A stretch of DNA of 64,000 bases from Callorhinchus milii (lineage: Eukaryota). The stretch lies in NCBI RefSeq assembly GCF_018977255.1, contig NW_024704742.1, positions 105,030,001 to 105,094,000 of the forward strand, given 5' to 3'. The notes under the pieces were generated by a model. It saw only the letters and a program-made list of their open reading frames with translations, was not told the origin of the DNA and searched no databases. Position numbers and translations under genes: made by a program. This document shows positions 21,219-53,069 of this stretch, in pieces (position 1 is the first letter of the stretch; every line of letters begins with the position of its first letter).

Positions 21219-21572
<354 letters not shown>

Positions 21573-24454: not shown

Positions 24455-24895
24455 ACATAAGAACATAAGATATTCTAGACGAAAAAAGACCAAGGTCCAT
24501 CTTGTTCGCCTTCCACCTTCCTGGCGATCACATGCACATAGGTTCCGAACTATCTATGTACTATATCCCGTATTGGTATTTCCTTAAAGAAAACTATCTA
24601 ATCTGTGTTTGAAAGAACCAACACTTCCTGCTTCAACCGTCTATCCAGGGAGCCTGTTCCACAGGTTCACTATTCGCTCACTGAAGTAGTGTTTGCATAG
24701 ATTCGTTCTAAATTTCCCCCCCTTTAATCGCAGGTCGTGTCCTCAGGTTCTACTAGTCTGGACAAGTTGAAACAACAACAAGATTACATTCAGTCTGTCA
24801 TGATGTATGTTGTCTTGCTCCTTTGGAATCTTAAAGACAGCAATCATGCCATCTCACAATCTTCTCTTTTCCTGCGTGAACATGGCCAATTTATA
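24455..24895 (-). mobile_element. CR1-like LINE 3' fragment (different tail type)
   Basis: CATAAGAACATAAGA tail repeat; body resembles the CR1 3' region (minus strand ...GAATAGTGAACCTGTGGAACAGGCTCCC...). Confidence 0.65.
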
Positions 24896-24972
24896 AAATA
24901 ATAATCATCCTTGCATTTGCTATAGCGCTTTTCACGTCTTCTAGACGTCCCAAAGCGCTTAATTTACTTAGT

Positions 24973-25600
24973 CAACAACAACATTACATTTGTATAGCGC
25001 CTTTCACGTCGGGAGGACGTCCGAAGGCACTGGACAGTGTACAGCATTTCAGACCCGAGCTGGGGTCAGGAGGGAGAAGGGAGGGGAGGGGAAGGGGGGT
25101 GACCAATGGTAGGGTCGAAGAGGAGTTGGGGAACGTGGAGCAGGCTGGAGCCGGCTGAGCGGAGGGAGCGGGCGGGTTGGTAGCGGGTTAGGAGGTCGCA
25201 GAGGTAGGGTTTGGCGAGGCCATGGAAGGCTTTCTAGGTGAGGACCAGGATTTTGAACTGGATCCTCTGAAGGATAGGGAACCAATGGGGGAGATGGGGT
25301 CACGGAGTTTGGTGTGGGAGAGGACACGGGCTGCAGAGTTCTGGATTATCTGCAGCCTGTGGAGGGAGGAGTTGGGAAGGCTGACAAGCAGGGCGTTTGC
25401 ATAGTCGAGCCTGGAGGTAATGAAGGCATGAACAAGAGTTTCAGGGGCCTGAGGGGTGAAGTAGTGCGGAGTCGGGTGATGTTACAGAGGTGAGGGAAGG
25501 CAGAGCGGGTCATGGCTTGAATGTGGGGAAGAAAAGACAGTTGAGGGTCGAACAAGACACCCAGGCTCCTGACTGGCTGGTGAGTTGAAGTCATCATGCA
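24973..25600 (-). mobile_element. L2 LINE family A 3' fragment
   Basis: CAACAACAACATTACATTTGTATAGCGCCTTTCACGTCGGGAGGACGTCC tail; ORF 25346-25597 VRSLGVLFDPQLSFLPHI. A SINE tail fragment lies just before it (24898-24960). Confidence 0.88.
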
Positions 25601-26692
25601 ATCATGAAGTTGATGCCACCACCCTCTGGGTTCTTCTGGTCAACCAGTTGTGTATCCATTGTAATGATTCCCGCTTTCTTTATTCAGTAACAGCCTCTCG
25701 AGAGGAACTGTAGCAAAGGCCTTACTGAAATCCATAAGATATATTAACTGTTACAGTAGGGAGCCTATTATCTGTATTAATTGGGATGAGCCCCGATACA
25801 GATAAGTAAACAGTACAGATTATCGTGCAAAATACAAATAGGCTACACTGCCAACTAAAAAATTATAACAACAAATTACACTTGTATAGTGCCCTTCACC
25901 ATAGGAAAGATGTCCCAAGGTGCTGTTACATCAGGCATTATACTAGTATTGTCACTATAATACTACACTGTAGCTACCAGTCTCTCTCTCATTTTGTCCC
26001 TGCTTCTCTTTCTCTCTCACACACACCCCGCTTTTCTCTACACTGCCTAAAAGCACTTTAAAATAAAAACGTACCTTTGCTACAGCAAAAAAAACAATGG
26101 GTCACATGTGCAAAGTTATGTACATGAACACAAGGTTAATAAGGATGCGTGCAAATTTGCAGATGTGCATAACTGGATTTTATTTTAAAATTTTTGCAGC
26201 CTTGGTCTTGGCACATAGACAATTGGCATGCAGATAATTGGTGCTTCTACTGTACCAGAACTAGCACAAGGAACCATTCATTGTTTTCTTAAGGCTCAAA
26301 AGTTGTTGGCTTTTTAATGATTTCCATCATGCTTGTATCAGGAAACATGCTGGGAGTGATAATGGTGTTAAAAAGGACTTTTATCAGGACACATCTGTTG
26401 AGATGCTTCTGACAAGATAACCATTTTCTTCTGTGCAACAACATAATGTTAGAATTTTAGTGCACACTCACTGTCAAACTGTGGAGCAAGGGCAGCACCT
26501 ATTTGATCATCACTCCGAACATTTCAATAGGTTCGAAAAACAGTAAAGATGGATTCAGAAGAACTGAAACTTGAACAACAAGGCCATTTGTCTGTAACTG
26601 TTTCTTTAGTGCAACTTTGAATTTAGACACAAGTACAAAGATGTCACTACTAGTTGCACCCATCAATTTTTCAAGTTCATGTAAATGTATTG

Positions 26693-26815
26693 TATAATCC
26701 TTGCGTTTGATATAGCACCTTATCATGTAAGTGAGATGTCTAAAGCGTTTCACAGAATAGATTGTAAAAAGTGAATTGATTTTATATTTTATGGGCGAAT
26801 CACGGCAGCCAAACG
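26693..26815 (-). mobile_element. SINE 3' fragment
   Basis: ATAATCCTTGCGTTTGATATAGCACC...TTCACAGAATA...GTGAATTGA...GGGCGAA. Confidence 0.8.
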
Positions 26816-27109
26816 CCCTCATCAGTGTGTGCGGTGTGTTACTTATTTACTTTAGTAATCTTTCTCCAAGCTATGTCCTTATTTATAATGCCTTTCAAAA
26901 AAACAAGTTTTCACAGTGTGTTTTCATATGATTTTGATCTGATCGATCCTAGCAAATCCTATTCAACTTCCCGCACTGCGAGCAAGTTATTTTATGTGCT
27001 ACAAAAGCCGCTGGTGTCACTTCATAGAAGAAGTGACATTAAGGTGTTTCTGGACAGCACACAACATGCTGGCGGGACGTCTGTAGCAACTCAAAAGTTG
27101 TTCATTTAT

Positions 27110-28900
27110 TCAGTTATATGGAGAGATTAGAGAGGCCAGGATTGTTCGCCTTAGAGCAGAGAAGGTTAAGGACAGATTTAATAGAGATATTCGTGCTATA
27201 TCAAATGCAATTATTATTATTAAAATTATGAGGGGTTTTGATAGTTTCCTCTGGCGGGTGGGTGGGTAACCAGAGGACACAGATTTAAGATAATTGCCAA
27301 AAGAACCAGAGGGGAGATGAGGAGAATTTTTTTTATGATCTGGAATGCACTGCCTTGCCTGACAGAGTATTGGAAGCAGATTCAATAGTAGCTTTCAAAA
27401 GGGAATTGGATATATACTTGAAAAGGAATATGGGGTAAGAGCAGGGGGGTGGGAACAGTTGTGAAGATCTTTCAAAGAGCCAGCATAGGCTTCGCTCTTT
27501 CCTCACCTCTCACTCCCTCCACGAACCCCTCCAATCGGGTTTCCGTGCTGCCCACAGCACTAAAACTGCTCTGGTCAAACAACATCCTGACCATGTATGA
27601 CCAGGGCTTCCTCTGCCTCCTCGACCTCTCTGCCGCCTTTGACACTGTGGACCACGCAATCCTCCTCCACAGCCTCTCCTCCCACCTCAACCTTCAAGGT
27701 TCTGTCCTTGACTGGTTCGGTCCTACTTTTCACGCCGCCTCCACTTCGTCGTGGCCAACGGCTTCTCCTCCAACCGTCTTGTGTGGTGTTCCTAAGGGCT
27801 CTGTCCTCGGTCCCCTCCTCTTCACCCTCTACATGCTCCCCCTTGGTGACATCATCGGCAGACATGGGGTAAATTTCCACATGTATGAGGATGACACCCA
27901 ACTCTACCTCTCTGCCTCCACCCTGAACTCCAGGACTACTGGCGTCCTGACCTACTACCTGTCCAACATCAAGTCCTGGATGAGGGACAACTTTCTCCAA
28001 CTCAATGTCAATAAGACTGAGGTGGCTCGCGCCAGCGCCTCCACACCTCAGGTGCTGGCAGCATCAGCCTCCACGGCTGCACACTCAACCTCACTAAGCC
28101 AGTCAGGAACCTGGGTATCTTATTTGACCCTGAACTGTCCTTTCTCCCCCACATCTGCACCATAACCGGGACTGCCTACCACCACCTCCGCAACATTGCC
28201 AGACTCCGCCACTGCCTCACCCTCAGGCTGCCGAAACCCTCACCCACGCATTCTTCACATCAAGGCTCGATTATGGAAACTCTCTCCTCATCGGCCTTCC
28301 CAACTCTTCCCTTCACAAGCTGCAGATCATTCAAAACTTTGCAGCTCGTGTACTCTCACGCACCAGGCTCCGTGACCCTATCACTCCCACCCTCGCCCGA
28401 CTCCACCGGCTCCCCATCCCCCAGAGGATCGAGTTCAAGATTCTCGTCCTCACCTTTAAGGCCATCCATGGCCTTGTCCCCTCCTATCTCTCTGACCTGC
28501 TGACTCCCTATGAGCCTGCCCGCTCCCGCCGTTCATCGGGCTCCGGCCTGTTCCATGTCTCCCGCCCGACCCAACCTACCATCGGTGGCCGGGCTTTCAG
28601 CCTCTCTGCCCCCACACTCTGGAACTCTATCCCACAGTCCTTTCCCCTCGCTTCCTCCCTTGCCTCCTTCAAGGCCGGTCTTAAGACCTTTCTCTTCAAC
28701 CGTGCCTTTGGTCTCCCTCCCACCTCTCTGCATTCCCTCACCCCTACACCACCCCTCCCCCATGCTCGGGCCCTGATATCTGACTATTCAGCGTTTTGGG
28801 ACGTCCACCTGACGTGAAAGGCGCTCTACAAATATAATCTTGTTGTTGTTGTTGATGGGCCGCATGGCCTCCTTCTTTGCTGGAAATTTTATGATTCATT
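27110..28900 (+). mobile_element. CR1 3' fragment (27110-27489 and 28854-28900) split by an L2 insertion
   Basis: Matches 6378-6819 CR1; breaks after TTCAAAGAGCCAGCATAGG and resumes GATGGGCCGCATGGCCTCCTTC...TTTTATGATTC. Confidence 0.85.
27490..28853 (+). mobile_element. L2 LINE family A, 5'-truncated, RT to 3' tail
   Basis: LLDLSAAFDTVDH, GVPKGSVLGPLLF, FHMYEDDTQLY in ORF 27449-28165; tail GGGACGTCCACCTGACGTGAAAGGCGC...(TTG)n. Confidence 0.93.
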
Positions 28901-29879
28901 TTGTTTATAATGCGGAGACTGAAATATTGGATCCAGATGACTGTGTTATATAGGGTCGCCTTGTATTTCAATCATCATAATTAGACATTCCACCTAATAA
29001 GGAAAGAAGTAAAAGCTTTGCCTACAGTACACATTCGACTAGTGGCATTACAGTGCAAGAATTTTCAATTTGCACAATTAATGTTTCATTTCTTAAATAA
29101 AACACAAGTCTTGTTAACACAACAAAGCACCCTTCAGGCCAACTTTAATACAATCTCAAGATTAAAAACCTATTTTTTACGAAGCAGAAAATGCATTCTA
29201 TTTAAATGTTCATGTTCTAGCTCATTGCTTTTCTCACAGACCATGTATGAAACAATTAGAGCTTAGCAGTTTGACTATTTAATTGATGGATATCATTGGT
29301 GAAATTATTCTAAATTGTGTAAAAAATCCCAAATTATAATTCACATCTCTCCGTGGTGGCAAATGGCATTTCAGAATTCTTTTGAAACATTTGATGTTCA
29401 ACCAAGGCTAATGAATAAATCACTACCTGTCACCAGAATAACCTCAGGTGATTCAGTTTTTCCAGTTTATTGAAAGCTTCCTCCAAATATTTAATAGAAT
29501 ATAGTATTTAGCCATGAAGTAAAAACAGCACGGCACAATGCTGAGAACAAAAAGAACTTGCATTTTTACAGCATGCCTCAGCACTTAAAGACACTCCACA
29601 GATAACTGCTGTCAAGTGCAGTGACTGTATAGTGAAAGCTGCAAGGTTTCACAAACAGCGAAGAGCTGAATTAGCAATTGCATAGAATTACATAGAATAT
29701 CTAGCACAGAACAGGCCATTTGGCCCAACTGGTCTATGCTAACGTTTATGCTCCATATGAACCGCTTCCTGCCCTTCCTCGACTAAGCTTATCAGCATAA
29801 TCTTCTATTCCTTTCTCCCTCATGTTCTTAGCTGGCTTCCCCTTAAATGTATCAATTAGAGAATTGTTCGCGAGTACAC

Positions 29880-30090
29880 TAGGACGTCTCTTTTTAAGGA
29901 ACATCATTCAATCTTTAATGTCCACCTGAATAGGCAGACAGGATTAATATTTAATGGCTCATCTGAAGGAGACATTTCCAACAATGCAGCACTTAGCCTA
30001 GTGTCAGCCTGGATTGATTTCAAATCCTGATGTGGGTCTTGAACCCACACAACCTTGTGACCCAAAAGTAGGAGTGCTGCCAACTGAGTG
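29880..30090 (-). mobile_element. Degenerate Deu-like SINE fragment
   Basis: GGGTCTTGAACCCACACAACC B-box region and ATCTTTAATGTCCACCTGA core, homologous to 22900-23090. Confidence 0.55.
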
Positions 30091-31016
30091 AAACTACAAC
30101 TAGCATGGTGCCGTTGGATATAGTGTCTCATTAAATACGATTGCCAGCAGTGTACTTAAAAGTGAATTGTTTTTGTTCACTTTATTAGCATTATGAAAGA
30201 TGATGAACATATCCGATAAATCCTACTCCAAATAAAAATTGGGTAACAATCAGTGATTGTTTGAACTTTGAAAGAGGAAAAAATGGCTTGTGGTTGTCTG
30301 GAGTAAGACAGAAAAAACTGAACTACAGAAAGCAACTTCTTAGCTGAAGAAAGGAACACACAGGATGCTGTCCTGCAAATGCACAGATGTTGAGACATGA
30401 GCAACACTGACAAGAAGCAGGATTTTTTTCAAACGTTCACACAGAAGATAAAAGAGTGAAAGCTGTGGTTTGAAACAACTGCCAATTAAAAAGCGTGGGA
30501 GCCAAGGTAGGTTTGATGGGAGCCATTCTGTTAACAACAGCTGCGGAATTAACATTTCTGAGGTATACACACAAAGTACTCTATTGATTTTAGAGACATC
30601 AGATTAATATTTGAAGGGGTAAAATAACCAATTAAAAAGTCTAGAGAAATCCTCAACGACCCTACAGACACTGAAACCACACCAAATTTTAATGTGAAAG
30701 ACGTGGTGCTCACGATTCTCTCAGCTCTGCTTTACAAACTAAGTCGTCCCAGCTTCAAATCTATCCTCCTGAGACTGAGTAGCTGTGAATGAGCTCTATT
30801 TAAGATGAAGCAGAATCTTTTGAAAGATTTAACATTGAGAACATAACCAATAATAAAGGGAATGCTTACTGGTATTGGCATTGAAGCTTTTAATCAAGGA
30901 AATGCTTGCATCACGAACCATTTACCAGGCTATATCAACATGAGTTAAAAGTGGTTCTATTCAACATTAAGATAACATCTGCATGAAATTTTAATAACTG
31001 CCATTGAGTACATTAA

Positions 31017-33746
31017 TACAACTACATCATCTTGGATTTATATAGCGCCCTCCAGCGTCTCAGAGTACTTTACAGTTTCAGATCCCGGGACCAAGCCAGG
31101 GGGAGGGGGAGGAAGGTGACCAAAGGCGCAGTTGAAAAGAAAGGTCTTCAGCAGAGACCTGAAAATGGGAAGGGAAGGAGCGAGGCGAAAGGAGTGAGGA
31201 AGGCAGTTCCAGAGCCTCGGGTCATAGTGGCTGAAGACACGGCCCCCAAGGGTGGAGCGGAGGACTCGGGGGACAAGGAGGAGGCCAGACCCAGAGGAAT
31301 GAAGGCAACGGGTGCTGTTTTGAGGAGAGAGGAGGTCAAAGAGGTAGGGGGGTGCAGAGGAGTGCAGGGACTTGAATACAAGGGTGAGGATCCTGAAGTT
31401 GATCCTCTCTGGGACAGGCAGCCAGTGCAGTCTGGGGTGATCGGGGAGCGGAGTTTGGTGTGGGTGAGAATGCAGGCGGCAGAGTTCTGAATGAGTTGGA
31501 TTTTATGGATGGTAGTGGATGTGAGACCGGCGAGGAGGGCGTTGGGAGTAGTCCAGCTGAGAGGTGACAAAGGCATGGACCAGAGTTTCAGCGGCTTTTG
31601 GGGACAGGTATTGGCGGAGACGGGCGATGCGATGGAGGTGGAAAAAGGCAGTGCTGGTAAGGGACCGGATGTGGGGGAGGAAGGATAATTGAGGGTCGAA
31701 TCTGACGCCCAGGTTGCGTTCGGGTTTGGAGAGTTTTAGGGGGAGGTCGAGTAGGTGGAGGTGAGAACCGTGAGATTTTAGACATTGACAAGAGCCGAAG
31801 AGTATGGCTTCCGTCTTGTCAACGTTCAGCTGAAGGAAGTTTGTGCTCATCCAGCCCCTGAGATCTGACAGGCAGGCTGACAGAACATCAGGGGACTGGG
31901 GTTCGTTCACAAAGAGAGGTGGAAAAGTAGAGTTGGGTGTCATCTGCATACATGTGGAAATGTACCCCATGTCTGCGGATGACATCTCCAAGAGGAAGCA
32001 TGTAGATCAGAAAGAGGAGGGGACCAAGGATGGATCCTTGGGGTACCCCGCAGGTAACCGGGTGAGAGCGGGAGGAGAAGACATTTATGCAGATGTAATG
32101 CTGGTGGTTTGTGAGGTAGGACTCAAACCAGGCGAGTGCGGTCCCACTGAGGTGGATGACGGAGGAAAGGCGGTGGAGGAGGATAGCGTGATCGACTGTG
32201 TTGAACGCGGTGGAGAGATCCAGGAGGACGAGCAGGCAGAGGGATCCCTGGCCACAGATGGAGAGGATGTCGTTTGTGACTTTCACAGTCTCTGTACTGT
32301 GGGCAGGGCGGAAACCGGACTGGAGAGGTTCGAAGAGGGAGTGGGAGGAGAGGTGTGCGTGGAGTTGGTTGACCACAACCCGTGCTAGAACTTTAGAGAG
32401 AAAGGGCAGGTTAGAAATAGGGCGGTAGTGGCTGGGGTTTGAGGGATCGAGGGAGGGTTTTTTTTCAGGAGGGAGGTGATGACAGCAGTTTTGAGGGAGG
32501 CAGGGACTGATCCGGAGGAGAGGGACTGGTTGATGATGTTAGCCAATAGTGGGCATAGGAGGAGGAGCTGTGTGACCAGTAAGTTGGTGGGGCAGGAGTC
32601 GAGGCAGCAGGTGGTGGGTTTCATGGAGGTGATGGTGGGTGAGAGGGAAGAGGGAGAGATGGGGAGGGAAGAGTGTAGAAAGGGGGTGGTGGTAGGAGCA
32701 GATGATGAGGAAGGTGAGGGGGGCAGAGAGGGTGTGGTGGTGGGTGACAAGGGACAGGTGGATGAGGCTGCCTGGCGGATGTTGAGTATTTTAGCAGGAA
32801 AGAAGTCCATGACCTCCTCGCTCTTGGCATTTGATGTGAAGATTGAGGAGGCCTGAGGGGGGGCACAGAGGAGGTAGTGGGTGGTGGAAAAAAGGATTTT
32901 TTGGATTGTTTTTGGCCTCCAAGATGATGTTGGAGTAAAAGGCCGTTTTTGCGAGTGTCAAGGAACGGCGGTAGCTGTGGAGATGCTCGAGCCACAGTTG
33001 GTGGTGAACTGTCAGACCAGTTTTCTGCCATCTGCGCTCGAGCAGCTGGGTTTTGGTTTTTGGCGGTGGAGATGGTTGTTGTACCAGGGGGATCGGGTGG
33101 GTTTGGAGATGGTCCTGGATTTTAGGGGGACGAGGGAGTTGAAAGTGGAGGAGAGGCGATCATGGAGAAGCTGGACAGCTGCTTCAGGATCTCTGCGGGT
33201 GGAAGGCCAGACGGATAGGATGTCTGATGATGTGAGGGCCTTTGTGAGGGTCTCAGGGGGTAGCCTTTTCCAAGGCCGGTAGAGGACGGTTGTGGGCTTG
33301 GTGGAGGAGAGGGATGTGAGAGGAGAAGGAGATGAAAAAGTGGTCCGAGATGGCCTTGGCCACTATGCTAAGTCGGAAATGTCAAGGCCGTGGGTGATGA
33401 TGAGGTCAAGTGCATGACCACGGTTGTGGGTAGGTGAGTTTATACATAGGGTAAGGTTAAAGGAGGAGAGGAGGGCAGTGAAATCAGCAGAAGTGGTGCA
33501 GGGGGAGTTTAGGTGGAGGTTGAAATCGCCCATTATGAATAGGCGCTCGGAGCAGAGGGACAGGGAAGAGAGGAGAGTGGAGATGTCTGTGTGGAAGGAG
33601 CCAGGGGGTTTAGGAGGACGGTAAACAAGGAGGATTTTCAAAGGGACAGAGGGGTGGAAAAGGCTGAGGTGCTCGAAAGAGGGGAAGCAGCCAGAGGAGT
33701 AGGGGGTGAGGCCAAGGGAGGCTTTGGAGATGAGGGCCACCCCGCC
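31017..33746 (-). mobile_element. L2 LINE family B, nearly complete ORF2 (APE endonuclease plus RT), frameshifted, 5'-truncated
   Basis: APE motifs GGVALI, VYRPP, IMGDFNLH, PTHNRGHALDLII (33363-33746); RT motifs QSGFRPAHSTET, LDLSTAFNTVDH, GVPQGSILGPLLF, YADDTQLY; tail at ~31020-31050. Confidence 0.95.
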
Positions 33747-34390
33747 GATAAGCAGGAGATAAACTTTTAGGAAATGTAAATGTATAGTGATCATAAACTT
33801 GAGCATAATAATAAATAACCATCGTATTTGGAATAGCATCTTTCAAAGTGCTTCACAGGATTTTCCTGTTCAGGAGTTTTACTGCAGTGGTTATTTTTGT
33901 AGGTGAATACGGCAGCCAATTTGTACACAGCAACATCCCACAAACAGCTATGAAGTTAATGACCAACTTTATTCACGTCCAGCACTGGATTGGAGCATCA
34001 ACCTAGACTATATAAATTCAAAGTACTGATGTAGGGCTTCAACTCACATTCTTCCGAATCAGAGGCAACTGTGTTAACAACAAAGCCATATCCAAAAGCT
34101 TATTTTACAGACATTGACAGGGATCAAAGATTTACAAAAAATATACAACACAGAATCAAGCTACTCGGCCCAACCAGTCTATATCACGGTTTATACTTCA
34201 CCCATTCCTTACTCCCTCAGATATCCTTCCATTCCCCTCTCCCTCATGTGAAGGTCGAGCTTAATCTTGAATGCATCTTCATGATCTGATTCAACCACTG
34301 CTTCAGGCAGTGAGTTCCACAATCTCACTAACTTATACACAAAGTAGTTCCGCCTAAATTCTCTTTTAGCTTCCCTAGTGGCTATCTTAT

Positions 34391-34760
34391 GGAGTCCTGT
34401 AGCTCAGTGATTAGAGCACTCGCCTCACAAGTGAGAGGACCCTGGTTCGATTCCCGGCAGAGCATAATGTTGGGCAAGTTTCCTTACTCCACATGCCTTT
34501 GTTTACCTAGCAGTAAGTAGGAACCCGGTTGTTAGTTGATTGGTGGATCACTTTTCCGGGGGTAATAATTCCTTCAAAATAAAAATTTATTTGGTCACTC
34601 AATCCACGACTGTTTGTGGGACACTGTTGTGCGTAATTGGCTGCCACGTTTCGCCCACAAATATGCAGTCAATTCACTTTGCAGTATATTCTGTGAAGCA
34701 CTTTGAGACGTCTCGAAGACGTGATAAGGTGCTATATCAAATGCGAGGATTATTATTATA
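34391..34760 (+). mobile_element. tRNA SINE, full length, long subfamily, inserted in an old CR1 fragment
   Basis: GGAGTCCTGTAGCTCAGTGATTAGAGC A box, GGTTCGATTCC B box, internal TGTTTACCTAGCAGTAAGTAGGAACCCGG, (TTA)n tail; degraded minus-strand CR1 at ~34140-34390. Confidence 0.92.
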
Positions 34761-35199
34761 TTTGTAAATATCAGTAAAGTTGTGGAACATCCTTGTACGA
34801 GTGTAGCAATTCTCACCTGAGACAAACTCCATCAATTTACATGAGGAGGAGATGCCTCCAATCCCAGCACAACTCAGAGAGAGAGCACATTCAAAGACCT
34901 GTTAAACCTTATTAATTTGAGAGAATAAAAACAAAACAGGCCCTCAAACAGCAAACCAGAAAGTGATGACCATAAGACCTGAAAAACACAGTGAAACGGA
35001 AATCAGTCTGAGAATTCTTTGGCTTGGAGAGAGCAATGGATTTTGTATCAGCAATTTCTCTTCTGTGACATGTTCACTGATATTACAAAAATGCACAAAG
35101 AGCTCATATACACGAGCATAACGTTTTGCTTGAAGCATCAGAGTAGTAACCTTTCAAGATCTATCATTCATTTCAGTGCACATTTTCTGCAGCTGAATG

Positions 35200-35630
35200 T
35201 CGGTTTCCGTCCAAGTCTTCTCTCCTTGATTTCAAGTTCTTCTTACTCATTTTCAAATCACTTCATGCGCTTGCACCTCCCTGCCTATGAGATCTGCTTA
35301 CTCCCTCCACTCCACCACCTGCTGCCTCCACTCGGTTGGCTCCAGCCTCCTGTTTGTCCCTCATCCACTTCGCTCCACCATTGGTGGCCGTGCCTTCAGC
35401 CACTACAGTTCCTATGCCCTGAAACTATGGAACTCTCTCCTCAATCACTCTGCCTTGCCCCCTCCCTCCCTACTTTCAAATCCCACCTAAAGACCTTGCT
35501 TTTTGATCGTGCTTACGGTCACCTCCCTCCTCCCTCTTCCCCCTGCCTCGGCGTCAAACTCCATTACTGTCAAGCGCTCTGAGATGCTACCCTGCATGAA
35601 GGGCATTATGTAAATGCAAGTTGTTGTTGC
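35200..35630 (+). mobile_element. Old L2 3' fragment
   Basis: RSTIGGRAFS and LAPSLPTFKSHLKTLLF motifs; tail AAATGCAAGTTGTTGTTG. Confidence 0.8.
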
Positions 35631-35795
35631 AGGAAACACCAACTCACACTTTTCCCACAGATTAACACCGAATGACAGGGAACACCAAATCAAGAAATTG
35701 CACCATTTTAGGAGCTTGAGGCTCAATCAGTCTGAAAGAGTTCTAGGGATAACATCCCCTTTCTCTCGTCTAGAACAAAGAGACTAAATGTATTA

Positions 35796-36029
35796 AATAC
35801 AAAATACTGCAGATGCTGGACATCTGAAACAAAACAGAGAGAGCTTGGAAAGCTCAGCAGGTCAGGCAGCATCTATGGAGAAAGGAAAGTGAGTCAACGT
35901 TTCGGGGCCACGAACCTTCATCAGAACAGACAAAGGGTCTGTTCTGACCCAAAATGTTGACTCACTTTCCTTTCTCATTAGATGTTGCCTGACCTGCTGA
36001 GTTTTCCCAGCTCGCTCTGCTTTTATTTC
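35796..36029. mobile_element. Palindromic non-autonomous element, probably Penelope-like-element derived, with TSD
   Basis: ~100-bp inverted arms (35823-35924 vs 35927-36032), flanked by direct repeat AGACTAAATGTATTA at 35781-35795 and 36030-36044. Confidence 0.75.
35892..35927 (-). ncRNA. Candidate minimal type I hammerhead ribozyme motif
   Basis: Minus strand GUU-CUGAUGA-AGGUUCGUGGCCCC-GAAA-CGUU-GAC: conserved CUGANGA and GAAA boxes, loopless palindromic stem III (ACGU), short stem I GUU/GAC; stem II is weak in this copy. Confidence 0.5.
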
Positions 36030-36719
36030 AGACTAAATGTATTATTGTTCTTAGATAACACTTGGCTTGCTGACCATTTTGCCTCAATGATTCCCTTTAT
36101 ATCTCCAACCTTTTTAAACGGGAGTGTCGTAAGGTTCTTCTAAGAAAAAGCTCTCCATAACAGTTGACATTAGAATACTGTTGTGAGGAATTAAAGGACA
36201 ACAACAAAAGATGACCTTCATCGGAAATGGTGCGAGAAATTATACAGGCACTAGGGGATTGAAAATGCTACTAATCACAGCAGAAGAAAAACCACAACAA
36301 GTTACAAAAGCCTTTTCTTACATATTATGTACCAAAATAGACATGTGACCAACAATAACAAAAACAAACATAAGACAATGCAACTTGATCTATAATTACC
36401 CCTTTTAACATTTGGTGCATTGTGTCAAAAACTGCATAAAAAAATGCAGGAAAGCAGCTATGCCTTCAACTCAGACTTCCTTCTAAACACTTGAAACTAA
36501 GATGACTCTACAACGATGTAAAAATGTAGCTGAACAGGACACTGTGGTATGGATTTCCTGGAACTGCCAAACTGTCAATGATTTGTTGCATTTAACATTT
36601 CAGTTGATTACAATCATATGTACTTAATAAATAACAGTGAATTTGGGATTTTTGGTTCTAATTAATTACCTCAGGGTTCTAAATGTAGTTAAAGGTGCAG
36701 AATACAAAAAAATCAATAA

Positions 36720-36870
36720 TAACTTTAAGAGAGAAGATAATTATTTGGGGAGGACAAGTTTCCAGGACTATGGGGAGAGAGCGGGGGAGTGGGATTGATT
36801 GAATAACTCTTTTCAAAGAGCCGGCACAGACGCCGAATGGCCTCCTTCTGCCCGGTATAATTCTATGAAT
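36720..36870 (+). mobile_element. CR1 3' tail fragment
   Basis: Very similar to 6655-6810 (AACTTTAAGAGAG.AGATAATTATTTGGG...GAATGGCCTCCTTCTG...ATTCTATGA). Confidence 0.88.
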
Positions 36871-37519
36871 TTTTTTTTGAGATAAAAGGCTATTAGGATG
36901 TGAAACTTGTTGCCACAAGTGACTACTGAAGACAAGTTAACTATAAGAGTTAAAAGATGAAACTGTTCTATTCTTCCAATACCAAGAGATCTGTTTGGAA
37001 AACTAATAGTGAAACAAGCAAGATCCACATCAGATTTTCCTCTGCTGACCCTAATCACTACCAGAACAAACTAAATCGGCCAATTATTTACTTCAGTCTG
37101 TAGTCCAATGTTCTCTGCAACTCACACAAGAGACATTGCAAAAGATCTGCCGCCCTTTCCTGGCCTCCTTCAAATGCAAAGCCATCTTGGCAGACGTCCC
37201 AGTTAAATTCTAAACGCTGATCTGTTCAATATAAAGCAATCAAGAGAAGAGAGTTCAACAGAATAAAATAAATAGAATTACACAACATGTAACCAGAGAA
37301 CAACAAGAGGAAAAATACTCAGACCGACCTACCTGCCCAGGTAAAAACAAATTCTACTTGCCCCAGATCCCAGATATAAATACTTGTCAGGGCAGAATAC
37401 AAAAAAGGCTGATAGTTTTTTTTTGTCTTTCCAACATATAAAAGGCTGGCATCTCACACAAAAAAAAAAAATTCTCTCCAAGCTAGCAAACAAATACATT
37501 CTCAAAAGTCACCCAAAAG

Positions 37520-37748
37520 ATAATAATAATAATAATAATCCTTGCATTTGATATAGCGCTTTTCACCTCGGGAGGACGTCCCAAAGCGCTTCACAGAACA
37601 CACTGTAGAGTGAATTGACTGTATATTTGTGGGCGAATTGTGCTGCGAATTTGCAGCCAATTGCGCAAAGCAATGTCCCACAAACAGTCGTAGATTGAAA
37701 ATGACCAATTTATTATTGTTTTTGGTTTTGGAGAGATTATTATTGTTA
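37520..37748 (-). mobile_element. 5'-truncated SINE, short subfamily
   Basis: (TAA)n tail at 37520, body near-identical to 40982-41189, ends at GATTATTATT. Confidence 0.92.
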
Positions 37749-38776
37749 TAATTTGTTATAATGATAACAAATGAAAATAATTAACCAGTTTTAATCAATT
37801 TGAGTTTTTTTTGTGGTGAGGGAGGGTGGATCAGTCTTCAGAGAATTGCAAATACAACTAGTTAGCATCCAGATGCTGGAAAGACCATATATAAAACATA
37901 AATTCTCTTTTCCTCTTGTTGCATGGGTGGGATTAAAATATCCAGTTTTTTAAAGTTGAATAACCAAAATAGGAAGCCCAAAAGCATGGAAATTCAGTTC
38001 ATTGCAGCAGGCAGTACAGCTTCAAAGAGATTGCTCGGGGAAAATACTGAGTACTTATCCTGCACTCACAAGATACAACTCCATCTCCTCTTTTTTCCTC
38101 TCAACAATACAAGTGTAATTATGCATAGGTTTAATCAATAGCAACTCCCTCTCATCTCAAAGAAAGTTGTCTGCACACAAACTTAAATCCATTCAGCTTG
38201 CTTCTGTCACTCAAGTACTGTGCATTGAATATTTTCAGTCAAGCATCATTTACTAGTCAGTGAAAACAAAAGCTACAATTGAAAAACCTCATTAAATTCA
38301 CCAATTGTGTAGTTAAGTTCCCATCGTTGTGTTCAAACCTGTCTGAATAGTGGATGTGCAGTCTTACTTTCCATCCCTGCTCTTAAAGAAGGATCACTTC
38401 AGATGCAATGTCTAATGATTGTGGTCAGTCACTGCTGCTCATTGTAGGGTTGTTACAAGAAGGGTTAGGATTTCGACCAACAAAAATGAAGGATATTACA
38501 ATGATTCTATGATTACAACAATAACCCAGAAAGGTAAATACTCATCTGCCATTGATCTTCTATTTATAATCAATTTACAGTAGGTACCAGGTGGTTTCCT
38601 CATTCATTCAGTTAATTGGCCACCTGGCTTCTTCCAAGCTTCCACTCACATCACTGCAGTATTAAAAGAAAATCTGTAGTATAGTCTAATAAATGCAAAA
38701 CACTGGTTACACATACACGTCAAGACTTTCCTCTTCGATCATGCCTAAGGTCTCTTCCTTTTTGTAGCACATAAGA

Positions 38777-39240
38777 CTACAACTTGCATTTTTTAGTGCC
38801 CTTCATGCAGAGCAGAGTAATTATATAGTCCTCTACCCTGCAGTCAGGCTTTTAGCCGATCTGCCCTCACTCTCGGGAACTTCATCCCTGAGCCCATTTG
38901 CCTCACCCCTTCTCTCGTCTCCTACTAGGTTCGCCTCAAGACCTCCTATTTGACCCCACCTTGGTCATCTTTCCCCTCACAAGTTTGGCCCATACCCCTG
39001 CTGAATCTGACCCCCAGCTCGGATGGAAACCCTCAATTGTCCAGCACCTTGGGATGTCGTCCGCTGTGAGCCATATAAACGCAATTTGCTACTGTTGTAG
39101 TTTGATGCTAAGATAGGGAGAAAAGGGAAGAGATTTTAGGCATGATCGAAGAGGAAAGTCTTGACGTGCAATTTGAAGACAGATAAAGATGCTGCAAAGT
39201 GAAGGAATCGAGGCACCGAATTCCAAAGGCTTGGTTCCAC
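38777..39240 (-). mobile_element. Old minus-strand L2 3' end containing a plus-strand L2 fragment (~38840-39098)
   Basis: Tail CAACTTGCATT...CCCTTCATGCA at 38780; same pattern as old copies at ~10071 and ~51232; inner piece reads CTCAAGACCTCCTATTTGAC...TTGGGATGTC. Confidence 0.55.
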
Positions 39241-40429
39241 TGTAATTAAAATACAAAAATGAGAGCGAAAGACCTTCGAACTAAAGTGCTCATGAAAGTA
39301 ACCTGGTTAAATCAATAGGTTCAACACAGCAGTGGACAATAGATCAATCTAGCCTACACATTAAACTTTCCAAACAATTCCTTCAAACCAGCTATTTCAT
39401 ATAAGAAATTAATTATTTTTTAATTTCCAGGAGCTTATCTAGTTCCTTTTTGAAAAATATTGTATAACATTACTAATCTGTAGCTAGAATACAGCATTTA
39501 TTTCACTGCGGAACATTTAAAGGACACACAGCACCTCCTCTGGTCTCAAGGCATGAGTACAGCAAAAATAAACCCTCTCAAATTAAAAAAAATGTACACA
39601 CTGCACATCTTAAAACACATAGGCATCCGTAGATGAAACTGTGAAGCTTTAATAATGGGACCATCATAATTCTATGCAAATATGAGATAGTTAGTACTTC
39701 AATACAGATTATAAATGAATGCAGGAAAGTCATAAGATCGCTTATTGCCCACTTTTTAACCATAAGTGCTCAGCGGACTCTGGCTTTCTCCCTACCTCTG
39801 TGACCTACTAACTCCAAACTGACCTTTCCGCTCCCTCACTCAGCGAGCTCTAGCCTGCTCTATGTCCTCGCCTCACTATCAGCTGTCGGGCCTTCAGCCT
39901 CTCTGGCCCCACCCTTTGGAACTCCATCCCACAGTCGACTTTGCCTCGCTCCCTCCCTTGCCTCCCACATCCTCCGTGTGCCTCCTCAAGCACCCTCAAA
40001 CGCCAAGTGTGAAGAAGTCATGGACTTTCTTACCTCTAAAACAGAAAACTTGGCTTGGCTATAAGTTGCCATTACACCTCACTTGCAGCTTTGAGAAAGA
40101 CTGACGTGAGAAGCATGTTGAATTCACTCTGTGTCAGCAGCTCGTCACCAAAGAAAATTTTGTTTCTGGAGCAAAGCTGTGTTGTGCCGGTTGCAATACA
40201 GCAGCTGGATAGAGCAAAATACCCCATATACCATATAGATGCATGTTGAAAAATGACTATCTAGTCACTGGCAAAAATCCTGCAGATGGGTGAAGTTTCT
40301 CAAGAGAAATTATTGTAAAGATAATTCAGTGATAGGGGTTGAGGTGCACTCATATAAAAAAAATTGCCAGGTTTGGGAAGCTTTGAACTTTAGTAATGGG
40401 TTTCTACACATGTCAGACACTTGGCTGTT

Positions 40430-40720
40430 CACACGTCTCTTATGTGGCACTTTATCAAATGCCTTTTAAAAATCCATATAAACCACATCAACTGCACTAA
40501 CTTCGTCCACTCCCTTCACTACTTCATCAAAAAACTCTATCAGGTTTGTTAGACATGATTTGCCTTTACTAAACCTTGTTGGCTATCCTTTATTAATCCA
40601 TATTTTTCTAAGTGAAAATTTATTTTGTCCCGGATTAGTCTCTAAAAGTTTCTCCATTACTGACTTTGGGCTGACTAAACTGTTGTTCCCTGTTTTATCC
40701 TTCTGCCCCTTTTTGTACTT
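40430..40720 (-). mobile_element. CR1 RT fragment
   Basis: Minus strand encodes VDVVYMDF.KAFDKVPH-like RT motif (TATATGGATTTT..AAGGCATTTGATAAAGTGCCACAT). Confidence 0.75.
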
Positions 40721-40875
40721 ATTTCATAAAATTACTCGAGTATTTTAATATCAGTCTCATGATGGAAATGGGAACTCAAAATAATGAAAACAATGCATTA
40801 AAATTTCAGTTGGCTGTACAATCCACAGATTATATTCAGCAACCTTGCACTAATTCTCAGAAGATGCCTTCAAGC

Positions 40876-41189
40876 CTGTAGCTCAGTGGTTAGAGCACTC
40901 ACTTTGCAAGCGAGAGACCTGAGTTCAATTCCAGGCAGAGGGCGAAACCTTGGGCAAGTTTCCTTACTCCACACAGAGCCTAATAATAATTCCTCCAAAA
41001 CCAAAAAACAATAATAAATTGGTCATTTTAAATCTACGACTGTTTGTGGGACATTGCTGTGCGCAATTGGCTGCCGCGTTCGCCCACAAATATACAGTCA
41101 ATTCACTTTACAGTGTGTTCTGTGAAGCGCTTTGGGACGTCCTCCCGACGTGAAAAGCGCTATATCAAATGCAAGGATTATTATTATTA
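40876..41189 (+). mobile_element. Young tRNA SINE, short subfamily, near full length
   Basis: CCTGTAGCTCAGTGGTTAGAGC A box, GAGTTCAATTCC B box, CpG-rich body, GGATTATTATTATT tail. Confidence 0.95.
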
Positions 41190-44029
41190 ATATAAGCATT
41201 CTGCTGTTCTAAGTTCTCTCTTGAGATTGAGCTGCCACAGTCACATGGCTATTTAGCTCCTAGTACTGCCCTTCTTTGTAAAAAAAAGTTTAACCCCATT
41301 CACTCCTACCACTCATTAGCCACAAATTTATTTTGAGCATAAATACTGACAATGTGAGCCAAACATTTGTTCCCATAGCTTCCCACATACCACACGTCCT
41401 CCTCCAGTCTAAGGCATGATAATGTAAAGTGATGCTTTGTGAACAGCAAGGAGGATGCTACTCATAGAAATTCTAGCATAGAAGATGGCCACTGGGTCCA
41501 CTGAGCTAATGCAGTTGGAACTCCTCCAATGGAACTAACTACTCAACTATAAAGACAATTTATAAGCTCAGTCTTACAAACACACCTTTCTCATTCCCTT
41601 CCAAACGATCACCCTCTTCCAAGTGGAGCCCACAGACAGTGACTGAGCCAAGTCCCTGCATCTGAATGCAAGAAAATCCACTCAGCCACAGCATACATTA
41701 CATTATTTTAAAGTGCTAAAAAATAACCAAACACTTTGTTTCTGTCTGGGCCTGCTTCATAGATGACTGCACAATCAGTCCCTCAGAAACATCTCAGCAC
41801 ATCATTGCAAATATGTAAAATTCCTCGAGTATAAACAAATATGCAAACTGACTCATCTGTGTAACAAGAAGTACTCCAAAGTACTGGTATGTTATTTAAT
41901 TTAATTGGGTCTCAAATCAACACACTCCAAACCTATCTCAAAACCCACACAACTTGAAAAAAATGATGTACTGTGCAGCCCGCTGTCTTTATGTAAAATA
42001 GGTTGTCAGCATACTTAGTTTTTAAAAAAGCATTGTACAAAACCTATATCTATTCAAAAATATATGAAAGTTTCGCTTAGATTTTTGAACAGAAATCATT
42101 GTTATTCCAAGTCTTACAAATCATACAAATGTCACAAATATGTAGTCTGATCTTTAAAGAAGGAAGTACTTGCACTGCAATTACCTTGAACACTGAATGT
42201 TTCAAGCTATGAGACCTTTGAGCTGCCACATTTAATATCAAAGAAACTGGGCTCTAAGATTCAGTGCGCTTTTCTCAAGGGCATATCACCAAGATTGATG
42301 AAAGTGCAGTAAAAATTACAAATAATGTTTACACTTTTTTTTCTCTCCTCGCATTCCTGTCTCCACTTCAGCAGGCACGTAAACATCATTTATCCAAGAG
42401 ATATAATTAGAGGAAATTAGGATAGTTACCAGTTAATTGACCATTCTTGCCCAATAACCCTTTAATGGCCAGCAAAGGTAGATTTGGGAAAATAGATAAA
42501 AACTTGTTCAAAATTGTTGCACCGATTAGTAAAATCCTGCTTCTAACCATAGTCTTTGCTATTATTTGAGTGTATAGTAGTTCAATCTTTACTTAGAAAT
42601 AGGAAATTCCCTTTACTAAACTGCGAAAGGGAGGGGTAAGGGTTGGAGAGAGAGGATAGAATCACCCTTAGGAAAAAACGTTCCTTTTCATATTACCAAC
42701 TTGTGTGTTTTACAAATCATTTGAGTGATCTCTTTGTCTACTGAACCACCTTTTACCAACTTCTAAATTCTTCATCAGTTCAGTAACGGACAAAGATCTC
42801 CAGCTCAAACAAGAGAACTAAAGCACTGTGATATTCTACTTAACATCAAAAAATTCTACAAAGCTTTAAAAAATAAAAGTACGTTATCAGACTTTATTTT
42901 CTTACATTAATAAAGACTTTGGGCTATACTTGAAAAGGATGCTTGCTCTCCTCATTCCTTTTTGAGTTTTTCTTAAAAAAAATATACGCAAGATCAACCT
43001 CGGTTGAAATCCAATAAGAAATGACAGGCAAAAACAGACGCTCCTTTTCTTCATCATTTTTAAAAAAGATGAAATGTATCAAAAGATGAAATGTGCTCAA
43101 GTGCTTGTGCATTCAACAACAGAGGAGGACAGGAAGATGGGATCAGCAATCTAACTTCATTCAAGCTCCACATAAAACATTACAATCCCCATGTCCAGGA
43201 GGAGTGTCTGAGGGTTAAAGATAAGACAGTAATATTACAACACCAAAGTGTACATCCTCCGGTTCACAGCTGTTCCCAAAGTCAGTGGAGTGGAAATGAG
43301 ATAGGGAGGGGAGGGTGGATTGGCAAAAGTGAATAAAGTAGAAAGCAGCTACACCAGAAAGAAGCACAGGATGCAGGGCTGCTTTGAGAACAGGTTAATG
43401 AGAAGAACGATGAGAGAACAGTAGAATCAATTTCACTGGAAAACAAAATGTTTAAAAATAAATGGTATTCAAGTGTAGGCTAACTCAGGGGATCTCAAAA
43501 GTGTACTATGTCTGAACCAAATTGCAAAGCAATTTTATCCAGACAAAGCACATCCTAATCGTCAGCTGTACCCCAAGAAGCTCTATAAACAAGGTTCAGG
43601 GACCTCATCAGAATATACTATAATTGGTCCCTGTACTCGATGTTAATGATTCGAGAAAACAGAGATTGTTCCTTCACTGTCGGTGACTGAAAAGCCCCCA
43701 TGATACTCAGCATACATTATTCTAAGTTAGGTTTTGTGAATTAGGAATGCAGAAAAAAAGTCAGGATCCAAATATTTGACACAGATTGAAAAATTAGAAG
43801 GTGGGGCAACAGTAGGCTGCCAAGAGCATTCATTCATTTCACAATCGTGTGAAAAATTCTAACAGCAAAAAGGATGTGTGAATTGAAGAACAAATAATGC
43901 CACAAAATATTTTGAAATACAAAAAACTATACTAGTAAATATATTGAAACATTGTTTTTAAGAACTGAAAATGTTTGATGTCATGCTGTCCCCTGGATTT
44001 TCTCTCATAAAAGCAATTATCAAAATAAT

Positions 44030-44335
44030 AATGCTTGCATTTGATACAGCCCTAAAACATTAAAACATCTCAAACTGCTATACAGATAATTGTCAATAGT
44101 CAATGCTGACTATGTATTTATAGGCAAACACAGCAGTCAATTTTACACACAACAATGTCCCACAAGCAGTTATGAAATGAATTACCATCTTATTGGAGGA
44201 TTATTGGCCCGGACACCGGAAGAAACCTGTTTGAATAGTTTCATGTATCTGCAACAGCCACCTGAGGTTAGCCAGATCAGACCTTGGTTTAACGTATCAA
44301 CATATCATGTGAAGGATACCACCTCTGACAATAAC
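44030..44335 (-). mobile_element. Degenerate Deu-like SINE
   Basis: CTTGCATTTGATACAGC tail, CAATGTCCCACAAGCAG body, CCTTGGTTTAACGTATC core; homologous to 22673-22980. Confidence 0.55.
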
Positions 44336-46499
44336 CCGGAGGCAAGAATGGTTTTGAATGAGCCAACCTGATGCTTACATTTTAAAATGCAATTAAACCT
44401 GCATGGTTAAGCACAGTTGTTGAAAAATAAAGAAAAAAAGTTGAAAAAGTCTGCATTAATCCCCCAGAAAAAAGTTTCCTATTGTGAGACCACACAGAAA
44501 TGGTACCTAACCTCAGTTGTCAATTACTGTGGAATCCTGTTATAAATTGTGTTTGCCTAAAGCATTATTGGGAAGTGGATCCTGAAATAATCCACCAAAA
44601 AATCCAAACACTGCAACAGGTAGTGATGTTGATGGCATCCTCATGAACGGGAAGTTAGCCTTTTTTTTACTATCTGAAAAGCCGGGCAATGTTTTCAACT
44701 GAGACGGCTTTCTGCACACATTCACACAGTGAATATGAAAGCGTTGAATGACAATTGCACCAGGATAACATTGGTTGGGATTTTATGGACCTCCAACTAC
44801 TGTACTATAATGGGACTCTACTGCCTTTTTTTAAAAAAGAAATGGGTTTTTAAAAGTCAAGGGAATCCCAGCAACAATTCCACAGAAAAAATTGGTCATT
44901 CACTTCATGAGTCATTATTGTGCACAAGTTTTGGTCTTGTTTTGCCTATAAACACATGGTCACCACTAATTTTACCATTTTTACAATTTTAAATTAAATC
45001 CTGTGAAGTACTTAGAGGCATCTCACTGCTGTGATAAGGCACTATACCAAATACAAGGATCATGAATAATAATTCAGGGTATGATGAAAGGGCAGGGCCT
45101 GAGATTAAAATGTCTTCCAAAATCTAATAAACAACCTTGACTCTTTTTACTTTGTTGCTATACCCTATTTGTGTGTGTAATGATTGAATAAGAATCTCGG
45201 TAAGCACAGTATTATCAGTACACATCAACACTTCTGAAACCTAACCTGAGTAGAAGAAAGAAATCAAGAAGAATTAATTCTCATGCAGTTCCGCCTTCTT
45301 CCAATTTAATGACATCAATAACAATATCAATAACAAAAGATGTTGATCTACAAAATAAACAGTTACTCCACTTTACAGTAAATCCTGTGAAGCACTTCGA
45401 TATGCCCTCCTGATGTGAAAGGTGGTATAGCAAATGTAAGGATTAATTATTTATTATTATAAAAGATCAAAACTAATGTTCAACACATAAATAGCCTTTA
45501 CCACAGTTTTAAATTCGAATTCAGATGGAAAATAAAAATTCTACTGAGGACACAGCTAATTCAGTTTCGCTTGTTGCTGAACAAGGCATATTTGTTGCAT
45601 ATCCTAAATAGGTTTCACTTGCTCATATAATGACATTTTATGACAAAATGCAGCAAACATTTTCCAAAAAATGTAGATATCTTCTTGTCATTGGGTCTTT
45701 ATAAAATAATTGCGTTCAAATATATTGGATCGGCAAGCTCTGTGAATAAATATTTGTTTAATGGTACAAACAAAAGCATAAAATATTCAGCTGAGACATA
45801 GAATATGTCTTTATTGTACAAATCTCAGCAATGTTAGGACTTTTGTTCATATAAATTGTATTTGTCAAGGAAAGGAAATGTACTGCATTGCAATAAGGTA
45901 CAATGTACTTGGAATGCTGAATATGAAGCAATGCAAAATGAATGAATCTCTTTCATGAACCAGCCTGAAAAAGGAGTGCATTTTGAATGTTTTGTCAGTA
46001 ATAATAACACATATACATTAGTGCGAAATATTAAGTCTAGTGTGTAATTTCCATAAACACTCAGTATAACAAAATTTCCTCTTTATATTTCTCCTCCCCC
46101 ATGACGTATCTTGAGCTAGCTAATTGCGTAGCCACAACCAAAGTGATGCAAATCCCCATCAGATCCATATCTGAGAGTCAATGCTATTTCTCCTCTTCTC
46201 TTCAATAAAGTAAAGAAAAAATATTTCATCTTTATCGTACCTTATCACATTAAAACTTTTCCCGAGTAATTACTGTCACGTGTTGTGTGACCCTTTTTGA
46301 AGGTAAACTACGGCATTCTTCTTCGTGCTAGATCAAGGACAATATGAGGTAGAAGCTACTCATTCCTTTTTCTCAACTGCAGAAAGTACAAGAGGTGACT
46401 AACGTGAGACAAAGTAACCCCCCCAAAAAAAGATAAGCTTTGCCTTCTTAGAGGGCATATTCCATTATTCCCAATCTCTGAGGATGAGCTCCATTGCTA

Positions 46500-53014: not shown

Positions 53015-53069
53015 GGGATGTCCTCCCGACGTGAAAGGCGCTATACAAACGTAATCTTGTTGTTGTTGT
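53015..53069 (+). mobile_element. Isolated L2 family A 3' tail
   Basis: GGGATGTCCTCCCGACGTGAAAGGCGCTATACAAACGTAATCTTGTTGTTGTTG. Confidence 0.85.

What the first reader, a model, noticed from the sequence alone, without database searches (positions are those of the whole stretch)
35781..36044. Palindromic insertion with 15-bp TSD carrying a minimal hammerhead-ribozyme-like core, sense to the FER pre-mRNA
Seen: two ~100-bp inverted arms between direct repeats AGACTAAATGTATTA. On the minus strand one arm reads CUGAUGA-AGGUUCGUGGCCCC-GAAACGUU-GAC. The other arm on the plus strand reads CAGACAA-AGGGUC-UGUUCU-GACCC-AAAAUGUU-GAC, with a perfect GGGUC/GACCC stem II but a mutated core, partly consistent with CpG decay. 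Established: Penelope-like retroelements carry minimal type I hammerheads with a loopless palindromic helix III that are thought to work as dimers. Inference: this is a PLE-derived non-autonomous hairpin element whose better-preserved ribozyme arm is transcribed within the FER intron; this copy may be inactive.
Basis: partly seen in the sequence, partly recalled or inferred. Interest (0 to 1): 0.7.

Follow-up and report, generated by a model that had tools for sequence, protein, structure and literature searches.

The report
Decayed mirror-image Penelope retroelement stub
This 234-base hairpin in a kinase-gene intron is a real insertion of two head-to-head end-pieces of a very abundant repeat that is likely a Penelope-like jumping gene; both copies of its small self-cutting RNA motif are mutated and the hairpin is predicted to mask them, so it is an ordinary example of a described pattern.

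Summary
In detail: exact 15-bp direct repeats, inverted arms, both hammerhead-like strings, inside a 40-kb intron of a FES/FER-family kinase on the minus strand. A related species appears to have the empty site. The arms belong to a high-copy repeat whose majority form has an intact minimal-hammerhead core and a perfect 5-bp stem II; a second subfamily shows one compensatory pair. One arm has a 28-nt tail that the other lacks, the published signature of Penelope-like (PLE) insertions. Two corrections. First, the 'better' arm is not intact: it has 2 private mismatches in 5 stem-II pairs, and the hammerhead fold costs 29.6 kcal/mol against the hairpin. Second, the hairpin is not itself a mobile family: its centre is private to this copy, so it was likely built at insertion, by priming from both cut strands or by fold-back. 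A link to a PLE reverse transcriptase could not be shown. This scan noted the same kind of stub before (40 notes in at least 10 genomes; unchecked). New member of a known kind; low interest.

The parts
35781..35795 (+). Left copy of the 15-bp target-site duplication (12 of 15 A/T); its last base is shared with the tail end
   Evidence: empty site inferred in organism B
35795..35927 (-). Long arm: hammerhead-bearing end-piece of the repeat, with tail; sense to the host pre-mRNA
   Evidence: thousands of contigs per genome-scale run lie on it
35795..35822 (-). 28-nt tail present on this arm only; overlaps a 7-bp stem-loop; its two ends are likely the two reverse-transcription start sites
   Evidence: alignment; fold; meaning inferred from PMC11167929
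35893..35927 (-). Minimal type I hammerhead, core intact (C3 35924 to A9 35918, extra A 35917, GAAA 35903-35900, palindrome ACGU 35900-35897, predicted cut 35896/35895); stem I 3 bp; stem II broken at 35914 and 35907
   Evidence: family majority letters; pairing probabilities
35795..35872 (-). 26 open codons from an ATG that follows a pyrimidine run and AG; possibly the start of the parent ORF, unproven
   Evidence: no protein match
35927..35929 (.). Head-to-head junction; in the family majority both arms would read CTG here (3-nt microhomology); this copy has A at 35928
   Evidence: row 35928 A>T and loose-end consensus behind 35927
35921..35947 (.). Inner perfect 11-bp inverted repeat (35921-35931 / 35937-35947); loop II of the right arm mirrors the junction, likely by a template switch
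   Evidence: loop positions have low family depth and gaps
35927..36032 (+). Short arm: inverted second copy without tail; last 3 nt overlap the right duplication
35927..35961 (+). Hammerhead remnant, antisense to the host gene: perfect 5-bp stem II, four core changes (35928, 35932, 35951, 35955)
   Evidence: rows for three of the four, the fourth by comparison with the left arm
36030..36044 (+). Right copy of the 15-bp target-site duplication
21559..61829 (-). Host intron (40,271 nt) in the kinase domain of a FES/FER-family gene

Best explanation
It is a lineage-specific insertion made of two head-to-head, 5'-truncated copies of the hammerhead-bearing end of a high-copy repeat that is likely a Penelope-like retroelement, likely assembled at the landing site, and both ribozyme copies are mutated and predicted to be inactive. 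Most likely route (inferred, about 55%): the element's GIY-YIG endonuclease cut the two target strands 15 nt apart; each free 3' end primed reverse transcription on uncleaved element RNA, one at the outer start site (tail included) and one at a site 28 nt further in (tail excluded, with 3 nt of target/RNA homology); both cDNAs stopped at the 5' edge of the hammerhead and were joined through 3 shared bases; repair gave the 15-bp duplication. A local template switch then made loop II of the short arm mirror the junction. In the host pre-mRNA the antisense arm is transcribed first, so the sense hammerhead would be zipped into the hairpin as it emerges. Shown: repeats, arms, tail, family membership, private mutations. 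Inferred: empty site, PLE origin, priming route. Predicted: masking and inactivity.
For: Family: 6,797, 1,720, 39 and 15,136 contigs laid in 4 of 4 runs (contigs, not copy numbers). Family stem II is GGGUC/GACCC: 35907 G>T in 95,241 of 96,060 depth units and 35914 A>C in 33,634 of 36,000 (X2), with like shares in the other three runs. None of the 40 listed rows falls on a left-arm invariant core base (3 rows were not shown); position 7 varies (69% C in X2). A second subfamily has the same core with AGGUC/GACCU (loose ends at 35903: 177 contigs in X2, 46 in X8, 267 in X12). Extra base after A9, G10.1-C11.1 and palindromic 15.2-16.2 match the features in PMC4209133. Inverted copy plus one-sided 30-40-nt tail plus TSD is the described PLE layout (PMC8557442, PMC3846280); here the tail is 28 nt. 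An anole PLE protein cuts and extends both strands, starts at two sites that bound the tail, and uses uncleaved RNA (PMC11167929). Both arms share a segment that is rare in the family (depth falls to 11,880 and 13,127 at 35836-47 and 36016-27, X2), which fits one template or one subfamily. Empty site: in organism B a contig of depth 23.7 is listed at 36032-36280 and one of the same depth covers 35678-35783. Masking: stem I and II pair probabilities 0.0002 or less, penalty 29.6 kcal/mol; in 6 of 7 growing transcripts the start of the core is already paired (the seventh ends at C3); two isolated left arms cofold without the hammerhead helices.
Against: No RT or GIY-YIG sequence could be tied to the family: no genome is held, five collection scans gave one chance hit, and the 26-codon frame matched nothing. 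The inner start site (35823 equivalent) is not among the six best loose-end places of any run, so its use across the family is not shown. The tail is 2 nt shorter than the published 30-40 range. The empty site rests on equal depth, not on a printed joint, and was not seen again, where the flanks were short. PMC11167929 says initiation is not homologous to the cut DNA, so the 3-nt overlap may mean end-joining, not priming. The second subfamily lacks the G10.1-C11.1 pair. Folding is computed, not measured.
Confidence: 0.85

Rival explanations
1. Same origin, other route: one priming event made the long arm; the cDNA 3' end folded back at the small CAG-AA-CTG palindrome and copied itself, and the second end joined the target by 3-nt microhomology.
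For: The junction sits on a natural mini-palindrome of the family. Self-priming at junction palindromes is proposed in PMC3846280. The 11-bp inner inverted repeat shows that fold-back copying happened here at least once. Shared rare segment in both arms.
Against: It does not by itself explain why the short arm stops one tail-length from the end; both-strand extension from two sites is shown in vitro (PMC11167929).
Confidence: 0.3
2. The hairpin is a non-autonomous element that is transcribed and retrotransposed as a unit, or a MITE-like DNA element.
For: Long inverted arms and a clean TSD. Other head-to-head copies exist: 3 of 8 listed X2 pieces and 3 of 8 listed X12 pieces span the centre (24,160 pieces not shown).
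Against: Those pieces carry 6-9 gaps and 12-23 other letters, so their centres differ. Depth at 35932-43 is 63 (X2) and 652 (X12) against 58,474 and 310,206 at 35908-19. The arms do not reach both ends symmetrically, as terminal inverted repeats would; a 15-bp TSD fits no common DNA transposon group (recalled).
Confidence: 0.07
3. The sense arm is a working or domesticated intronic ribozyme that cuts the host pre-mRNA, perhaps with protein help or a partner in trans.
For: All invariant core bases of the sense arm are kept. Conserved intronic hammerheads exist in amniotes (PMC6155905). The anole PLE hammerhead cleaves when its protein is added (PMC11167929).
Against: 2 of 5 stem-II pairs broken, 3-bp stem I, no second sense copy in the window, 29.6 kcal/mol masking; even the isolated 47-mer gives stem probabilities of 0.02 or less. 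A single minimal hammerhead showed no cleavage in PMC4209133. The insert appears absent from related species. An intact core is expected by chance in a good share of copies at this level of decay (inference).
Confidence: 0.03

Closest known systems
Minimal type I hammerheads (min-HHR) of metazoan Penelope-like elements (PMC4209133; parts 1-2 of 4 read)
   Same: Core boxes, extra base between 9 and 10.1, G10.1-C11.1, palindromic 15.2-16.2 with no loop 3, thousands of mostly solo motifs; that paper also reports pairs on opposite strands about 100-700 bp apart.
   Different: Stem II is 5 bp in the family (7-8 bp in Schistosoma); the two cores here are only 2 nt apart; both copies are mutated; one subfamily has A10.1-U11.1.
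Insertion units of endonuclease-positive PLEs: inverted 5'-truncated pLTR, junction palindrome, one-sided tail, TSD (PMC3846280 and PMC8557442; passages read)
   Same: Head-to-head inversion, palindrome at the junction, tail at one end, TSD, possible ORF start inside the end-piece.
   Different: No ORF body at all: both arms are cut down to 105-133 nt. TSD 15 bp (8-10 bp in the rotifer examples); tail 28 nt.
Poseidon PLE of Anolis carolinensis, PAc (PMC11167929; parts 1-2 of 4 and passages read)
   Same: Hammerhead a little over 100 nt upstream of the reverse-transcription start (111-118 nt into an ORF that begins at stem II; here 102 and 130 nt from C3 to the two arm ends); AT-rich target.
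   Different: No ATG at stem II here; the 3' end is U-rich, not AC-rich; clade of the parent not determined.
Non-LTR retrozymes of animals (PMC7229834, passages; bioRxiv 10.64898/2026.07.22.740005, part 1 of 5 and passages)
   Same: Non-coding, type I hammerhead, PLE-related, present in the one chondrichthyan sampled.
   Different: Retrozymes are head-to-tail tandems with two same-strand hammerheads; this is head-to-head with one per strand.

Membership tests
PLE minimal hammerhead | CUGANGA and GAAA core conserved | tested here: met
   Left arm intact; no listed family row on invariant core bases, 3 rows hidden. Right arm: not met, four changes.
PLE minimal hammerhead | Unpaired base between positions 9 and 10.1 | tested here: met
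   A at 35917 and 35934; also in the second subfamily
PLE minimal hammerhead | Stem II with G10.1-C11.1 and covariation | tested here: met
   Family majority 5 of 5 pairs; one compensatory pair between two subfamilies, i.e. one event. This copy's sense arm keeps 3 of 5.
PLE minimal hammerhead | Stem I of 4-5 bp with covariation | tested here: inconclusive
   3 bp in this copy (cut at the junction); a fourth pair follows from the upstream consensus; covariation not counted
PLE minimal hammerhead | Palindromic 15.2-16.2 for dimer helix III | tested here: met
   ACGU at 35900-35897; broken in the right arm
PLE minimal hammerhead | Self-cleavage as a dimer | not testable with these tools
   Folding predicts no active fold for this copy
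Endonuclease-positive PLE insertion | Linked ORF with PLE-type RT and GIY-YIG endonuclease | tested here: inconclusive
   No genome; no relatives with flanks; peptide searches blank
Endonuclease-positive PLE insertion | Inverted 5'-truncated copy next to the 5' end | tested here: met
Endonuclease-positive PLE insertion | Tail of about 30-40 nt on one end only | tested here: met
   28 nt on the left arm only, just under the published range
Endonuclease-positive PLE insertion | TSD with empty site | tested here: met
   15 of 15; empty site inferred from two pieces of equal depth in run X11
Non-LTR retrozyme | Head-to-tail tandem with two same-strand hammerheads | tested here: not met
   One per strand, head to head; no further copy in the window
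MITE or mobile hairpin family | Many copies sharing both termini and the centre | tested here: not met
   Centre depth hundreds of times below the arms; asymmetric ends

The most novel reading that the evidence does not exclude
Head-to-head stubs like this one are a genome-wide, base-precise record of how PLEs insert in vivo: one staggered 15-nt cut, both strands primed at the two tail-bounding start sites, on RNA that the hammerhead has not cut and whose usable 5' end lies at the ribozyme's 5' edge. The second subfamily's shared sequence fades within a few bases upstream of C3 in the four runs where I could read it best, which fits. Counting arm ends over thousands of copies would test the in vitro model.
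Probability: 0.35. Interest if true: 0.45.

Novelty: new member of a known kind. Interest (0 to 1): 0.2.

Why it matters
For the host gene probably not at all: the insert sits more than 14 kb from either exon and is predicted not to cut. As one of many stubs it has modest value: the steps of PLE insertion after the first cut are not yet validated (PMC11167929), and the ends and junctions of such stubs can tell twin priming from fold-back. It also shows that core-only motif scans call ribozymes whose stems are already broken.

Tried and rejected
No whole genome is held, so no copy count, no full-length element and no per-molecule covariation. Rfam: no hammerhead hit; the miRNA hits lie far below their thresholds and reflect the long hairpin. 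Collection scans: 0 loci in metagenomes, 0 in GTDB, 0 and 1 in IMG/VR; the one hit, L001, shares only the pattern and was rejected. The 26-codon frame: no match among 6 candidates, 0 among 1.84 billion representatives, no Pfam family; queries this short are weak. A 15-nt match at 14093 is not a second copy; nhmmer found nothing else below E 4.5. No RNA holder listed; runs X7 and X8 are only guessed to be RNA, so nothing is claimed on expression. Loose ends at 35927 and 35795 arise partly by construction, because the query leaves the family there; I do not count them as pile-ups. Loose ends at 35834-35855 mark a divergent segment, not true ends. The paper on dimer cleavage of small PLE hammerheads (Lunse et al., recalled) is not held. 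Searches for a paper on such stubs in cartilaginous fish found none, in a library that lacks most subscription journals; supplements of PMC4209133 were not read and those of the preprint are closed, and either may list this family.

Full report
Observation. The sequence is as described. The 15-mer at 35781-35795 recurs exactly at 36030-36044 and is the only exact 15-mer repeated at 100-400 nt spacing in the window. Between the copies lie two inverted arms, identical at 87 of 106 columns (15 substitutions, 4 gap columns). The minus-strand RNA folds into one long hairpin of -141.2 kcal/mol, z -19.6. Two consecutive kinase exons on the minus strand match FES/FPS residues 195-234 and 236-288 best, so the insert lies in one 40,271-nt intron and the long arm is sense to the pre-mRNA. 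That the gene is FER rather than FES is my recall. No tool named the organism; earlier notes of this scan call it a cartilaginous fish (unchecked), which agrees with my recall of such repeats.

It is an insertion. In run X11 (organism B) a 1,089-nt contig of depth 23.7 is listed at 36032-36280, and a contig of the same depth covers 35678-35783 (ends read from the from_end column). The gap is one duplication plus the insert. The left piece is not printed with its record number, so the empty site is inferred from equal depth. In X16 (organism C) a contig also begins at 36032, with 19 unlaid letters before it. One search, with shorter flanks, laid no flank for X12 (same sample as X11) and so neither confirmed nor contradicted this. 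The B flank differs at 28 letters and 5 gaps in about 250; the arms differ at 8 of 77 columns outside the ribozyme. If the arms began alike, the insertion is nearly as old as the A/B split (inference).

The family. On 35740-36080 at 80% likeness, 6,797 (X2), 1,720 (X8), 39 (X5) and 15,136 (X12) contigs were laid. These are contigs, not copies, but the family is plainly abundant in organisms A and B, and in C. Against the family the long arm has two private changes in stem II: 35907 (other letter in 95,241 of 96,060 depth units in X2; 459,572 of 466,119 in X12) and 35914 (33,634 of 36,000; 201,403 of 221,976). The majority stem II is therefore GGGUC/GACCC, as the short arm still shows. Position 7 is C in 69% (X2) and 57% (X12). 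None of the 40 listed rows falls on an invariant core base of the long arm; 3 rows were hidden. A second subfamily leaves the query at 35903 with a consensus that reads, in sense, the same core and AGGUC/GACCU (177, 46 and 267 contigs in X2, X8, X12): one compensatory pair, one event, and a departure from the usual G10.1-C11.1. The extra base after A9 and the palindromic ACGU match the features listed for PLE minimal hammerheads in PMC4209133 (parts 1-2 of 4 read), which also reports pairs on opposite strands. Rfam has no matching model.

Architecture. The long arm carries 28 nt (35795-35822) that the short arm lacks. An inverted truncated copy, a junction palindrome, a one-sided tail of 30-40 nt and a TSD are the described layout of endonuclease-positive PLE insertions (PMC8557442 and PMC3846280, passages). 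In the anole PLE the tail is the stretch between two reverse-transcription start sites, both target strands are cut and extended, and uncleaved RNA is the main template (PMC11167929, parts 1-2 of 4). The spacing is alike: 102 and 130 nt from C3 to the arm ends here, against 111-118 nt into an ORF that starts at stem II. At the junction the family majority gives CTG for both arms at 35927-35929 (row 35928 A>T and the consensus behind 35927). Loop II of the short arm makes a perfect 11-bp inverted repeat with the junction; 5 of these pairs follow from family sequence, and the other 6 look templated. Both arms share a segment rare in the family (depth 11,880 and 13,127 in X2 against more than 87,000 in adjoining inner bins).

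The hairpin is not the mobile unit. Depth at 35932-35943 is 63 (X2) and 652 (X12), against 58,474 and 310,206 at 35908-35919 and 14,448 and 64,575 at 35944-35955. Three of 8 listed pieces in X2 and 3 of 8 in X12 do span the centre, each with 6-9 gaps; 24,160 pieces were not shown. Head-to-head copies recur, but with their own junctions.

How it likely arose and what it does. I favour a 15-nt staggered cut, priming from both strands at the two start sites, arrest at the 5' edge of the hammerhead and joining by 3 shared bases (about 55%), over single priming with fold-back (about 30%). The data do not separate these: the inner start site is not among the top six loose-end places of any run, and the inner repeat shows that fold-back copying did occur locally. 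As a ribozyme the copy is predicted dead. In the sense RNA, stem I and II pairs have probabilities of 0.0002 or less and forcing the fold costs 29.6 kcal/mol. The antisense arm is made first, and in 6 of 7 growing transcripts the start of the core is already paired. The isolated 47-mer gives 0.02 or less. There is no second sense copy in the window, and single minimal hammerheads did not cleave in PMC4209133. The short arm, antisense to the gene, has lost U4, G8, G12 and C15.2, three by CpG-type change.

Limits. I could not link the family to an RT or GIY-YIG gene, so 'PLE' rests on ribozyme features and layout. No expression claim is made. Five literature searches found no paper on such stubs in cartilaginous fish; the library is partial and supplements were not read. 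This scan holds 40 notes in at least 10 genomes with the same words and 143 notes on hammerhead plus Penelope in this genome; I saw 8 of each. They agree with my reading, which I had stated before seeing them, and gave the lead to PMC3846280; they are not counted as support.

Verdict. Correct observation, partly correct interpretation. An old, decayed head-to-head stub, most likely of a PLE: a new member of a known kind, interest 0.2.

Noticed in passing
window 35863-36007: One 375-nt contig of run X7 (organism A, guessed RNA, depth 4.8) joins 35862 directly to 36008, skipping 145 nt of the hairpin at a 3-nt direct repeat. Template jump during library making or a deletion allele; a contig of X1 holds 35990-36007, and the join was not among the joints shown for X2, X8, X5.
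   Followed up: partly
window 35872-35895, minus strand: Pyrimidine run and AG directly before an ATG that opens 26 codons to the tail end; it looks like an intron 3' end followed by an ORF start, 23 nt past the predicted cut site. No protein match.
   Followed up: partly
window 301-368, 23897-23968, 34393-34465, 40876-40938, 47671-47742: Five related tRNA-like heads, probably a tRNA-derived SINE family.
   Followed up: no
window 27422-28817, 31038-33842, 46418-47290, 53255-54299: Several reading frames resembling LINE reverse transcriptase and endonuclease pieces (CR1/L2 type by recall).
   Followed up: no
window 35560-35629: 3' end of another high-copy repeat, 150 nt left of the insert; in some contigs elsewhere this repeat end is joined to the tail end of the hammerhead family (joints 35626-35629 to 35795-35802), which suggests the family inserts into that repeat's AT-rich end.
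   Followed up: no
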